A DNA stretch of 64,000 nt from a virus (Duplodnaviria > Caudoviricetes): IMG/VR virus record IMGVR_UViG_3300006151_000005, positions 1 through 64,000 of that record. One strand, given 5' to 3'. This document shows, one piece after another, positions 7,574 through 64,000 of this stretch (its first letter is position 1; each line of letters begins with the position of its first letter). The position numbers were made by a program, and so were the translations under genes. A model generated the notes under the pieces. It had not been told where the DNA came from and did not search any database. It worked only from the letters and a program-made list of their open reading frames with translations.

Positions 7574-7993
7574 TTAATGGTCTAAATCCTTACATTCATG
7601 CAAAAGTGCGCACAGAGAATCCATCAGCTTTTGAATAACCTCATCATCTGCGTATAGCTCCCTCATGTGTTCAAAATCATGGGTATGACACAACTTGTGA
7701 AACTCTTCCTCACGCCAGTCTTTTAGAATTGCCATAATTTCTGCTATCGTAGTTGGGGTGTGGCTTCTTCCGCGATAGTGCAAAAAAGCAACCATTTTAT
7801 TGGCATTGATTTCGTCGGTGAATAATTCCGCAACAGACACATCAAGCGCATCAGCGATTTTCATCAATGATTGCAGGCTGGGGTTTCCTTTGCCGTTTGC
7901 TATGTTAGAGAGCATCGCCTCCGTCACACCGGCGGTGGCTGCGACGTCCTTTGCGGTTAGTCCTCTACTTTTTAGAATATCCTTAATTCTCAT
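7574..7993 (-). CDS. XRE-family HTH regulator
   Basis: RIKDILKSRGLTAKDVA...GKGNPSLQSLMKIADALDVSVAELF. Confidence 0.9.
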   Translation of the reverse strand: MRIKDILKSRGLTAKDVAATAGVTEAMLSNIANGKGNPSLQSLMKIADALDVSVAELFTDEINANKMVAFLHYRGRSHTPTTIAEIMAILKDWREEEFHKLCHTHDFEHMRELYADDEVIQKLMDSLCALLHECKDLDH

Positions 7994-8127: not shown

Positions 8128-8184
8128 CGGTGTGAAATTATCACAAACAATAATTCAACGTAATCAACCCCTAAAGGCAAAGAT

Positions 8185-8517
8185 ATGAAGACTACAAGAA
8201 ACAACCTCAAAGACATCATGCTTCTGGCGTGGTCGTTTGTTCGTCGCAACGGCTTCACTATGGCAGAGGCTATGAAGACCGCATGGCGCAACTACAAGCT
8301 GAAAAACGCTATGTATGGCCGCATCGTGAAATTCTACTTTGTTAAGGTCGATGGGTCGCTGCGCGAGGCTTACGGCACATTAAAAGAGAATCTGCTGCCG
8401 GCAACGCAAGGCACTGGCAGACGTGCCAACGACACAGTGCAAACGTACTTCGACACCGAAAAAGGAGAATGGAGATGCTTTAAGAAAGCAAACCTCGTGC
8501 GCATCGCTAACGCATAA
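8185..8517 (+). CDS. SH3-like beta-barrel (DUF2693/WYL_2-like) protein
   Basis: VKFYFVKVDGSLREAYGTL...YFDTEKGEWRCFKKANL. Confidence 0.8.
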   Translation: MKTTRNNLKDIMLLAWSFVRRNGFTMAEAMKTAWRNYKLKNAMYGRIVKFYFVKVDGSLREAYGTLKENLLPATQGTGRRANDTVQTYFDTEKGEWRCFKKANLVRIANA

Positions 8518-8596
8518 GACATCAAACCGGGGATGCTGTCAGCCACGGCATCCCCAGCCCCAAACATCAAACGTAATCAATAACACCAATAAGACA

Positions 8597-8836
8597 ATGA
8601 AAATAATCGCTAACATCTTCTATGTAGGCCAAATCGTATTCTCAGCCGCCCTCGCTTTATGGGCGTTATACATGGCACTACGCGGCCTCTTTACCGGCGG
8701 GCCACTGTTCGTAACTATCTGCTTCGCCGTAATGACATGCACAACCTATTGCCTCATGTACGTGCCAAGTGTGCGCGAATACAAGGAGCATAAGGCAAGC
8801 CACAACAAAAAGACACAGACAGAGCAAAATGACTGA
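8597..8836 (+). CDS. small membrane protein
   Basis: Two hydrophobic segments; ATG 8597 follows the conserved GTAATCAATAAC leader. Confidence 0.65.
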   Translation: MKIIANIFYVGQIVFSAALALWALYMALRGLFTGGPLFVTICFAVMTCTTYCLMYVPSVREYKEHKASHNKKTQTEQND

Positions 8837-11060: not shown

Positions 11061-11327
11061 ATGAAAGCAAAAGAAATCATCGACAAGGAAGATAGAATGA
11101 TGGCAAACATCCGCGAGCTTATCCCTAAAATTGTGGGCATACGCCTTGAAGCCCAGAAAGCTGCATCGTGGATAAATAAGTATGACGCGGAACTTGCCAC
11201 CGCATCAGAAGAAATGTCGGAAGCAATCGATGCCCTTTATCGTGCGGAAACCGCAATGGGCAATGCGCATCAGTATCTTCTTGTGTCGCAATCTACCATT
11301 AAGCACGGTCTTGATGCGGAAGCGTAG
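11061..11327 (+). CDS. hypothetical protein
   Basis: A-rich leader, ATG start. Confidence 0.6.
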   Translation: MKAKEIIDKEDRMMANIRELIPKIVGIRLEAQKAASWINKYDAELATASEEMSEAIDALYRAETAMGNAHQYLLVSQSTIKHGLDAEA

Positions 11328-11371
11328 CCGTTTATCATGGCCATGTGGAAAGAATTTACTATCTTTGCACC

Positions 11372-11494
11372 GCCATTCAAAGCTGGGAAGCTGACGGATG
11401 GCACTCAATAGGTCTTCATACTTTTTGTTGACTTATTGGGTTATTGATTACACCGTGACCCCGGAAGCATCCACTACCGGGGTCACACTTTTTT
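11372..11494 (+). ncRNA. putative trans-acting antisense small RNA
   Basis: TATCTTTG -7 box at 11360-11367; 5' hairpin; 11409-11451 complementary to several gene leaders; intrinsic terminator at 11455-11494. Confidence 0.55.
11455..11494 (+). terminator. Rho-independent terminator
   Basis: GTGACCCCGG-N12-CCGGGGTCAC followed by ACTTTTTT. Confidence 0.8.
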
Positions 11495-11764: not shown

Positions 11765-11796
11765 TTTGGTGGATAAAAGTAAAAGCATTAACTTTG
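11765..11796 (+). promoter_or_regulatory. Bacteroidota sigma-A promoter overlapped by an 18-bp operator-like palindrome
   Basis: TTTG-N20-TAACTTTG. Confidence 0.8.
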
Positions 11797-11846
11797 CATC
11801 GTAATCAATAACCACAATAAGTTAAACCCCTTAAACCCCAAACGTT

Positions 11847-12719
11847 ATGAAGACTCTTAACGACGAAATCAACGAAATCAAGGCTGCTAACACCAGCAAG
11901 AACTCAAAGAAAGCCGCCCTTGCCAAACTGGGCATCACACCCTACGAAATCGACATCATACTTGAGGGCGTTGAGTGCGCCACCCGTGGCCGTTTTACAT
12001 TTGGCGTTGAGATAGAGTGCTTCGTCAATAGTGGCGCAATCAGAACAGCCGCAGAACACACCGGCATGGCCTACGAATACGAGGGCTACAACCACCGCGA
12101 CGGTCACGACTACTTCAAGTTTACCACTGACGCATCAGTGCGCGGCATGGCTGACCCCATCGAGTGCGTGTCACCGGTGCTTGCAGGCGTGAACGGCAAG
12201 AACACCCTTAAAAACGCCGTCAAGACGCTTAACACCGCCGGCGCAAACGTCAATCAAACATGCGGTCTGCATGTGCATATCGGTGCATCTAAACTGACCG
12301 CAAAGCAATACTGCAACGTGTTTGTAAACTACGCCTACCTTGAGGCCGTCATAGATACCTTTATGGCCCGCTCGCGTCGCGCTGACAACGCCGGATACGC
12401 TCACACGCTGCAAGACCACATCTTCTATCTTGAAAGTGCCGTGACGGTTGAAGACATACGACGTGCCCTCTGCAACGACCGCTACCACAAAGTCAATGCC
12501 GAAAGCTACCGCCGTCACAAGACCATCGAGTTTAGACAGCACGCCGGCACGACCAACTACGAAAAAATCATCAACTGGGTTAGCTTCTGCGGAAAGCTCG
12601 TCATCTGGTCAAAGAAAAACCGCCTGACCGCCCCGGTTGCAAGCATCGACGATATACCCTTTCTGACCGCCGAAGAGAAGTCATTCTTTAAGGCACGTGC
12701 AAGCCAGTTAAGCCGATAA
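11847..12719 (+). CDS. putative amidoligase (COOH-NH2 ligase, Amidoligase_2-like)
   Basis: TFGVEIE, ECVSPVL, TCGLHVHI, RYHKVN and TIEFRQH motifs. Confidence 0.85.
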   Translation: MKTLNDEINEIKAANTSKNSKKAALAKLGITPYEIDIILEGVECATRGRFTFGVEIECFVNSGAIRTAAEHTGMAYEYEGYNHRDGHDYFKFTTDASVRGMADPIECVSPVLAGVNGKNTLKNAVKTLNTAGANVNQTCGLHVHIGASKLTAKQYCNVFVNYAYLEAVIDTFMARSRRADNAGYAHTLQDHIFYLESAVTVEDIRRALCNDRYHKVNAESYRRHKTIEFRQHAGTTNYEKIINWVSFCGKLVIWSKKNRLTAPVASIDDIPFLTAEEKSFFKARASQLSR

Positions 12720-12810: not shown

Positions 12811-13389
12811 ATGTGCGTCATCATAGTAAAGCCGGCAGGCGTTAAAATGCCAAGCAACGAAATCATCAACGCAGCGTATCACACTAACCCCCACGGATGC
12901 GGCCTTATATCGCCGTCGGTATTCTACAAGGGGTTAAGCTATCGCAGCTTCAAAAAGCATCTGCAAAGGGTGCGCGAAGACGAGCCGTGTATCATACACT
13001 TTCGCCTCGCTACCCACGGCTCAATCAAGCGAGCCAACTGTCACCCGTTCAACCGGGGCGATGTATGGTTTGCCCACAACGGAATCCTGAACATACAACC
13101 GATGGGCGATATGACCGACAGCGAAACCGCCCTGCAAAAAGTCATTTACCCGGCAATCGTCAAGTACGGATATGGCTCTGAGGGGATGGATGTCGCCGTG
13201 GCAAAGGTCATAGGCTATTCAAAATTTGCCTTTATGCAAGGCGATGACGTGCGTCTTTATGGCGACTTCATCACCGGCGACGATGGATGCCACTACTCAA
13301 ATTTGCGCTTCATGCCGTTTGTAGGCTGGCAGCGGAAATACCGCAGTAATGCCTACGATATGGGGTCTTTGATTACAACCGGGCGATAA
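12811..13389 (+). CDS. class II (Ntn) glutamine amidotransferase
   Basis: N-terminal Cys (MC), NPHGCG, HFRLATHG, CHPF, AHNG, DSE. Confidence 0.85.
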   Translation: MCVIIVKPAGVKMPSNEIINAAYHTNPHGCGLISPSVFYKGLSYRSFKKHLQRVREDEPCIIHFRLATHGSIKRANCHPFNRGDVWFAHNGILNIQPMGDMTDSETALQKVIYPAIVKYGYGSEGMDVAVAKVIGYSKFAFMQGDDVRLYGDFITGDDGCHYSNLRFMPFVGWQRKYRSNAYDMGSLITTGR

Positions 13390-63673: not shown

Positions 63674-63705
63674 TTTGGTGGATTAAATTATTTACTTTAA
63701 CTTTG
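63674..63705 (+). promoter_or_regulatory. Bacteroidota promoter, divergent from the XRE promoter at 63593-63600
   Basis: TTTG-N20-TAACTTTG. Confidence 0.8.
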
Positions 63706-63740
63706 CATCGTAATCAATAACACCAATAAAAGTAAAAGGC

Positions 63741-64000
63741 ATGAAACTGATAACAAAAGCACTTGAAAAGACCTTTGCAAAATATCCCATGTATTCGCAG
63801 GATGGCAAAGGCAACGATGCGGTAGTAATCGCAAAATTCTTTCTGCCGGGTAGCGGCTTCACATGGTACGTCACAGAAGCAGAAAAGCAGGCCAACGGCG
63901 ACTACATGTTCTTTGGCTATGTAGAGGGCTTGGATAGCGAGCTTGGCTACTTCACACTATCGCAGCTTCAAAACGTGCGCGGTCGTTTTGGCTTGCGCGT
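63741..64000 (+). CDS. DUF2958-like protein (partial, runs off the window)
   Basis: MKLITKALEK...AKFFLPGSGFTWYVTE...FGYVEGLDSELGYFTLSQL. Confidence 0.8.
   Translation, partial: MKLITKALEKTFAKYPMYSQDGKGNDAVVIAKFFLPGSGFTWYVTEAEKQANGDYMFFGYVEGLDSELGYFTLSQLQNVRGRFGLR

What the first reader, a model, noticed from the sequence alone, without database searches (positions are those of the whole stretch)
11360..11494. Candidate multi-target antisense sRNA against the shared leader and start codon
Seen: a -7 box (TATCTTTG; the -33 box is weak), a 5' hairpin (GCCATT...GATGGC), a 43-nt unpaired segment and a strong U-tailed terminator, with no complete ORF inside. The reverse complement of the segment is GTAATCAATAACCCAATAAGTCAACAAAAAGTATGAAGACCTA. 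It has 13 nt perfect plus CAATAAGT plus TATGAAGAC complementarity to the amidoligase leader, 12 nt plus CCAATAA to the 8573 and 63710 leaders, and 8 plus 9 nt to the 8160 leader. Read on the minus strand it encodes only MKTY-stop. Inference: one trans-encoded sRNA silences a dispersed early-gene regulon, conceptually like the P1 C4 antisense RNA. I do not know of a description for Bacteroidales phages.
Basis: partly seen in the sequence, partly recalled or inferred. Interest (0 to 1): 0.82.

Follow-up and report, generated by a model that had tools for sequence, protein, structure and literature searches.

The report
Phage small RNA silencing shared leaders
A mouse-gut Muribaculaceae prophage carries a conserved 123-base RNA gene whose exposed stretch is complementary to the first 12 bases of up to seven scattered phage messages and changes in step with them across related phages, so one RNA probably switches off a whole set of early genes, a control I found described for no Bacteroidota phage.

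Summary
The complementarity is real and conserved. Window 11372-11494 (+) is a predicted 123-nt RNA with a Bacteroidota -7 box and three hairpins: P1, P2 and a U-tailed terminator. One correction: the 43-nt segment is not unpaired. Most of it folds into P2, leaving a ~12-nt toehold exposed. The toehold is complementary to the predicted +1..+12 of phage leaders; a second site covers the AUG. The 105-kb genome has seven such leaders, three outside the window; they rank in the top 8 of 323 ORF starts by predicted binding. 21 homologues sit upstream of the amidoligase gene in related phages. Their stems covary (25 of 32 pairs change on both sides). The toehold occurs in 7 variants, each mirrored in that phage's own leader, and the only differences are G-U wobbles. 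The minus-strand ORF is not conserved, and there is no Rfam match. Best reading (0.8): a trans-acting antisense RNA that represses a dispersed early regulon. It works like P1 C4 but is not in that family.

The parts
11360..11367 (+). Bacteroidota sigma-A -7 box (TAnnTTTG type) of the sRNA promoter
   Evidence: the box or a close variant lies the same distance upstream in all 21 homologues, with the first base of P1 five bases after TTTG; consensus from PMC7366714
11372..11494 (+). predicted sRNA, 123 nt (103-123 nt in homologues)
   Evidence: start inferred from promoter spacing, not mapped
11372..11402 (+). P1, 5' hairpin with a conserved inner stem-loop (CUGNGAAG)
   Evidence: 6 of 7 outer pairs change on both sides
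11403..11441 (+). P2 hairpin: its 3' arm is antisense to leader positions ~11-22 and is masked by the 5' arm; the top carries the anti-AUG site
   Evidence: (10 of 11 pairs change on both sides)
11412..11420 (+). second pairing site, antisense to the start codon and first codons of the targets
   Evidence: 129 of 135 positions (-1..+8 from the AUG) can pair in 15 cognate pairs
11439..11451 (+). seed, antisense to +1..+13 of the amidoligase leader; 11442-11454 is the exposed toehold
11455..11494 (+). intrinsic terminator with U6; it would also end read-through from the upstream operon
   Evidence: U-rich tail on the plus strand in all 16 homologues examined
11789..11855 (+). target 1: promoter -7 box, leader from 11801 and start (11847) of the amidoligase-GATase operon; strongest predicted target
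   Evidence: (rank 1 of 323)
8573..8599 (+). target: internal leader after a hairpin, before the 79-aa ORF at 8597
   Evidence: rank 5
8160..8193 (+). weaker target: leader of the WYL_2 gene (8185), the first gene divergent from the HTH repressor
   Evidence: rank 6
63698..63743 (+). target: promoter and leader (63710) of the DUF2958 gene (63741). Three more promoter-leaders lie beyond the window at genome 73213, 75383 and 76601
   Evidence: rank 8; the other three rank 3, 2 and 4
11061..11327 (+). 88-aa helical-hairpin protein found directly upstream of the sRNA in the homologous loci examined; link to the RNA not shown

Best explanation
A trans-acting antisense small RNA of a temperate Muribaculaceae phage clade. 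It is made from its own sigma-A promoter, and possibly also as the 3' end of the upstream early operon. It folds into P1, P2, toehold and terminator. The ~12-nt toehold pairs with the first bases of target transcripts, which share a leader starting at the predicted +1. Pairing then unzips P2 by strand displacement and frees a second site that covers the AUG. Bacteroidota mRNAs lack Shine-Dalgarno sequences and depend on A-rich leaders (PMC7366714), so covering leader and AUG should block 30S loading, with decay or termination downstream. One RNA would thus shut off 5-7 scattered operons of small genes with strong promoters: they fire on DNA entry before the RNA accumulates, and stay off in the lysogen or against an incoming relative. 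Shown by sequence: conservation, structure covariation, sRNA-leader covariation, target ranking. Inferred: transcription, start sites, repression, translational step, timing.
For: (1) 21 syntenic homologues keep promoter box, three hairpins and U tail while the sequence varies; 94.8% of cells paired and 25 of 32 pairs with two-sided changes, against 34-43% paired in slid controls (alignment fitted to the model and holding one spurious row). (2) Over leader +1..+12, 10 distinct toehold/leader combinations give 116 Watson-Crick pairs, 4 G-U wobbles and 0 mismatches; permutation p 2e-5. The 7 toehold variants need at least 6 changes, and sister taxa on the amidoligase tree differ in concert (L033/L076, L071/L073, L168 against the L006 clade). 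(3) Cognate binding averages -19.6 against -12.7 kcal/mol non-cognate in a 16x16 matrix. (4) Leaders 30-50 kb away also track the variant: in G006 all three promoter-leaders carry the A-run form like its RNA. (5) Motif leaders top the genome-wide ranking in four phages. (6) Complementarity breaks at -1 of the predicted start (1 of 16 identical). (7) L068 has neither promoter-leader nor sRNA; L015, L022, L023 and L034-36 also lack both.
Against: Start sites are inferred from promoter spacing. Kin are not independent and 9 of 25 inner tree branches are unresolved, so the p-values overstate the case. The cognate leader is the best partner in only 9 of 16 rows. The mosaic phage of L004/L179 keeps other-type leaders with weaker predicted binding (-15.0, -9.9). 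The wobble bias rests on 4 cases. Position -2, upstream of the predicted +1, is identical in 10 of 16 pairs (4.7 expected), which pure mRNA pairing from +1 does not explain. Distant human-gut phages (G409-412) carry the same leader start with no antisense RNA found, so the invariant core is partly a promoter feature.
Confidence: 0.8

Rival explanations
1. Same RNA and pairing, but it acts on transcription. It captures the nascent 5' end, or the non-template strand near +1, and causes abortive or premature termination, as proposed for RteR and known for P4 CI RNA. This is a variant of the best explanation at the mechanistic step.
For: The seed begins at the predicted +1; position -2 covaries (10 of 16); RteR is thought to cause premature termination in Bacteroides (PMC3809561).
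Against: The second conserved site covers the AUG 20-46 nt downstream, and two targets (8160, 8573) are internal, not at a promoter.
Confidence: 0.2
2. A DNA site: the shared 12-mer is an operator, or a tract kept alike by gene conversion, and the reversed copy is a decoy operator.
For: The motif sits at +1 of strong promoters, is prophage-specific in host genomes (all 6 matches in G001 within one 56-kb stretch) and exists without an sRNA in G409-412; the -2 identity.
Against: It is not palindromic. All targets are sense and only the structured unit is antisense. Differences are G-U compatible only (4 against 0). It explains neither the anti-AUG site nor the covarying P1, P2 and terminator stems. 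A separate near-palindromic candidate operator lies upstream of the -7 boxes.
Confidence: 0.07
3. Decayed 5' end of an inverted gene, or a minus-strand small-protein gene, next to an ordinary operon terminator.
For: The minus strand reads like a leader plus ATG and MKT. The element probably originated by inverted duplication of such a leader.
Against: Minus-strand ORF length varies from 3 to 100 aa, with a stop by codon 5 in 5 of 16. No conserved minus-strand promoter. The match to target codons ends where P2's 5' arm begins. The U tail and promoter are on the plus strand in all homologues examined. A dead relic would not track leader changes.
Confidence: 0.05
4. Guide RNA for a phage protein (TnpB/TldR- or Cas-like repressor, or the adjacent 88-aa protein acting as a Rop-like helper).
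For: The conserved P1 inner loop suggests a protein site; the 88-aa gene is tightly linked and found only in 43 clusters.
Against: No PF07282 match in the genome, which is 87% complete; no conserved PAM-like flank; the 88-aa protein is a generic helical hairpin with no significant fold match.
Confidence: 0.08

Closest known systems
Phage P1/P7 C4 antisense RNA (Rfam c4 antisense RNA RF01695; PMC8198154, PMC2864571)
   Same: Phage RNA acting in trans through short complementary sites, as a second repression layer beside a protein repressor; P1 and P7 variants differ in specificity (own knowledge).
   Different: C4 controls one operon (c4-icd-ant) from which it is itself processed (processing from own knowledge), in Proteobacteria. 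This RNA has its own promoter and terminator, 5-7 dispersed targets, a seed at the transcript 5' end, no antirepressor target identified and no Rfam match.
RteR of Bacteroides CTnDOT (PMC3809561)
   Same: Bacteroidota mobile-element sRNA with its own constitutive promoter that represses element genes in trans.
   Different: RteR is 90 nt, acts on one tra operon, probably by premature termination, on a conjugative transposon; no shared-leader regulon.
P22 sar, lambda OOP and aQ, BTP1 STnc6030 (PMC12197685, PMC7067206)
   Same: Phage antisense RNAs that control lysis-lysogeny genes or superinfection exclusion.
   Different: They are encoded antisense to, or act on, a single locus; this RNA is trans-encoded with several targets.
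Establishment regulon of plasmid p576, Reg576/EGeRS2 (PMC6294495, PMC8708921)
   Same: Several scattered strong promoters with a shared sequence, expressed briefly after entry until a repressor accumulates.
   Different: The repressor there is a protein binding DNA operators; here the candidate repressor is an RNA binding the shared leader.

Membership tests
c4 antisense RNA family (P1/P7 C4) | Match to the Rfam covariance model | tested here: not met
   no gathering-level hit in the window; only weak unrelated hits, E >= 0.54
c4 antisense RNA family (P1/P7 C4) | Targets the icd/ant antirepressor operon in which it is encoded | tested here: not met
   predicted targets are amidoligase, DUF2958, WYL_2 and unknown small ORFs at dispersed sites; no antirepressor family hit among those scanned
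Any Rfam family (including Bacteroidales-1 and Bacteroides-1) | Score above gathering threshold | tested here: not met
Trans-encoded base-pairing sRNA (general class) | Independent non-coding unit: promoter motif, terminator, no conserved ORF | tested here: met
Trans-encoded base-pairing sRNA (general class) | Conserved secondary structure with an accessible seed | tested here: met
Trans-encoded base-pairing sRNA (general class) | Seed complementary to distant mRNAs, kept by compensatory change | tested here: met
Trans-encoded base-pairing sRNA (general class) | Transcript detected | not testable with these tools
Trans-encoded base-pairing sRNA (general class) | Target output changes with the RNA and is rescued by compensatory mutations | not testable with these tools
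   needs a reporter assay
Cis-encoded antisense RNA or type I antitoxin | Overlaps its target gene on the opposite strand | tested here: not met
   no conserved minus-strand ORF or promoter
TnpB/TldR-type RNA-guided repressor | TnpB/Cas12f-like partner gene in the element | tested here: not met
   no PF07282 match in G000, 87% complete; IscB and Cas9 families not searched

The most novel reading that the evidence does not exclude
The RNA is a master repressor made of RNA. It takes the place of a protein repressor as the timer and immunity determinant for a dispersed establishment regulon, reads a leader code at +1..+12 of nascent transcripts (possibly already during initiation, given the -2 covariation), and its 7 or more toehold variants define superinfection-immunity groups among mouse-gut phages. 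It would also be a chaperone-independent, reprogrammable silencer for Bacteroidota.
Probability: 0.3. Interest if true: 0.86.

Novelty: new variant of a known kind. Interest (0 to 1): 0.74.

Why it matters
Known phage antisense RNAs control one locus. Here one RNA appears to have co-evolved with a leader shared by 5-7 scattered operons, which would be regulon-level control by RNA in a phage. A 2025 review of phage sRNAs has no Bacteroid- mention (PMC12197685), and a 2026 review of gut-commensal sRNAs has no phage mention (PMC13750123). Bacteroidota lack Hfq, ProQ and Shine-Dalgarno sequences (PMC7366714), so a natural toehold RNA with matched variants makes it directly testable how base-pairing represses genes in this phylum, and offers orthogonal silencing parts for gut Bacteroidales. 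It also marks which uncharacterised small ORFs the phage must keep off, which are candidates for host-takeover or anti-defence genes.

Tried and rejected
Rfam at gathering and E-value thresholds: nothing meaningful. Annotated phage collection: no DNA match, and amidoligase protein hits of 51% identity or less, so no named close phage. The covariance model over 151 genomes of the host family found only the known G001 copy. Pattern hit L045 is a chance match in a coding region. The reverse motif in distant phages G409-412 lies inside a divergent gene's coding sequence and is not an sRNA. 12-mer matches outside the prophage in G002 and G004 have no promoter box in front. WYL_2 (Sm-like fold) as an obligatory Hfq substitute was rejected because it is absent from the L067 and L076 loci, which keep the RNA. 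The upstream 88-aa protein as a Rop-like helper: helical hairpin, no significant fold match, so undecided. Target functions: Pfam, PHROGs and NCBIfam gave only amidoligase, GATase, DUF2958 and WYL_2. The AUG-site script misplaced the start in L076, so that pair was left out of that count. Ten literature searches found no description of this RNA; most subscription journals are not covered.

Full report
Setting. The window is the first 64 kb of a 105.5-kb virus record. It encodes an integrase, a reverse transcriptase and an HTH repressor at 7574-7993 divergent from a WYL_2 gene. Close relatives lie in Muribaculaceae genomes (Lepagella muris NM04_E33, Isolate-036, Muribaculum sp.), and one IMG/VR relative is classed as a provirus. 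It is therefore a temperate phage of mouse-gut Bacteroidales. No named phage is close.

Observation. All stated matches are present. The shared 12-mer occurs four times in the window and never in 100 shuffles. The whole genome holds seven sense copies before ORFs: 8160 (partial), 8573, 11801, 63710, 73213, 75383 and 76601 (one-base variant). It holds one antisense copy inside a structured unit, which is this element. Five of the seven begin at the fifth base after the TTTG of a Bacteroidota -7 box; the same spacing puts the element's own start at G11372, the first base of its 5' hairpin. In host genomes the 12-mer is concentrated in the prophage: 6 of 6 matches in G001 and G005, 6 of 7 in G002. 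One correction: the 43-nt segment is mostly paired in a second hairpin, P2, and only 11442-11454 is open.

Conservation. A covariance model built from ten copies found the element once per locus, on the plus strand, between an 88-aa gene and the amidoligase promoter. 21 copies were tabulated, 16 of them non-redundant. All keep a -7 box at the same distance, P1, P2, an invariant 9-nt toehold core, a terminator and a U-rich tail, at 103-123 nt. On the model-fitted alignment 94.8% of cells pair and 25 of 32 pairs change on both sides, while slid controls pair 34-43% (the alignment leans toward the model and includes one spurious row). The independent RNAalifold fold gave 11 of 31 pairs with two-sided change. 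The minus-strand ORF runs from 3 to 100 aa without conservation. Loci whose amidoligase lacks the promoter-leader (L068, L015, L022, L023, L034-36) also lack the element.

Covariation with targets. Over leader positions +1 to +12, ten distinct toehold/leader combinations give 116 Watson-Crick pairs, 4 G-U wobbles and no mismatch. Shuffling partners gives a mean of 48.8 of 60 at the variable positions against 60 observed (p 2e-5). Seven toehold variants imply at least six changes, each mirrored in the cognate leader. Sister taxa on the amidoligase tree differ in concert (L033/L076, L071/L073, L168 against the L006 clade), although the base of the tree is unresolved. In G006 the distant DUF2958 and MKRYK leaders carry the same A-run form as its RNA, so the effect is not only local linkage. 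Cognate pairs bind at -19.6 against -12.7 kcal/mol for non-cognate pairs, and the cognate leader is best in 9 of 16 rows. A second site pairs with the AUG region at 129 of 135 positions in 15 pairs, and the match stops where P2's 5' arm takes over. Complementarity breaks at -1 (1 of 16 identical), but -2 is identical in 10 of 16, which is unexplained. In a genome-wide co-folding screen the seven leaders rank 1-6 and 8 of 323 ORF starts, and motif leaders also lead in G006, G001 and G004. This ranking would follow for any reversed leader copy, so it identifies targets but does not prove function. Limits: a mosaic relative retains non-matching leaders with weaker binding, and distant human-gut phages have the leader start without a detectable RNA, which suggests the RNA evolved against a pre-existing initiation motif.

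Mechanism. Predicted duplexes leave P1 and the terminator intact and run from the toehold through P2's 3' arm, then over the AUG; target leaders are nearly unstructured. This is a toehold and strand-displacement design. Bacteroidota lack Shine-Dalgarno sequences, Hfq and ProQ and depend on A-rich leaders (PMC7366714), so occluding leader and AUG should block translation without a chaperone (inference). The targets head operons of small unknown ORFs behind AT-rich promoters, plus amidoligase-GATase and DUF2958; I infer that they are entry or early genes. Because the RNA's terminator would also end the upstream operon, read-through could add negative feedback. Lysogenic silencing or immunity and a lytic timer are both compatible and cannot be separated here. 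Action at the transcription level, as for RteR (PMC3809561), remains possible.

Comparison. There is no Rfam match. The logic resembles P1 C4 (PMC8198154), but C4 controls a single icd-ant operon and the membership tests fail. The regulon design resembles the Reg576 establishment regulon (PMC6294495), with RNA in place of protein. Reviews of phage sRNAs and of gut-commensal sRNAs give no Bacteroidota phage example.

Verdict. New variant of a known kind; interest 0.74.

Noticed in passing
window 48107, 63683; genome 67230, 75356, 76573; same in G006, G001, G004: A near-palindromic 18-bp element (TTAAA-N8-TWTAA) abuts the -7 box at 4-5 phage promoters per genome, at sRNA targets and non-targets alike, and is almost confined to promoters. 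It is not found at the sRNA promoter. Candidate repressor operator, which would be a second, protein-level control layer.
   Followed up: partly
window 11452-11453 against leader positions -1 and -2, in 16 homologues: Position -2 upstream of the predicted +1 is identical between RNA and promoter in 10 of 16 pairs (4.7 expected), while -1 mismatches. Unexplained: shifted start sites, a relic of duplication, or DNA pairing.
   Followed up: partly
window 11061-11327: 88-aa two-helix hairpin protein, restricted to 43 clusters and found directly upstream of the sRNA in the loci examined; no family or fold match.
   Followed up: partly
window 13365-13376; L006:7516-7527, L007:7522-7533, L031, L032: A reversed copy of the leader 12-mer lies in the 3' end of the GATase gene in several relatives (perfect in L006, L007, L031, L032; two changes in the window), so the amidoligase-GATase mRNA could pair with its own 5' end. 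May be a coding coincidence.
   Followed up: no
window 8536-8560; L006:2976-3010: Internal targets (8573 and the MTKA leaders) follow a GC-rich hairpin without a U tail, a possible processing or stabilising site that would expose the motif as a new 5' end.
   Followed up: no
L038:2811-2884 (genome 64811-64884): tRNA gene with an AAC anticodon found by ARAGORN, matching an earlier report of a GUU-reading initiator tRNA in this genome; a second odd tRNA-like gene lies at L038:7484-7554.
   Followed up: partly
   Followed up: no
L089-L092 (G409-G412): Human-gut phages of about 49-60 kb have the same promoter-leader start before their amidoligase, but no antisense RNA was found.
   Followed up: yes
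L031: A contig labelled 'uncultured Staphylococcus' carries this Bacteroidales phage locus and is probably misbinned.
   Followed up: no
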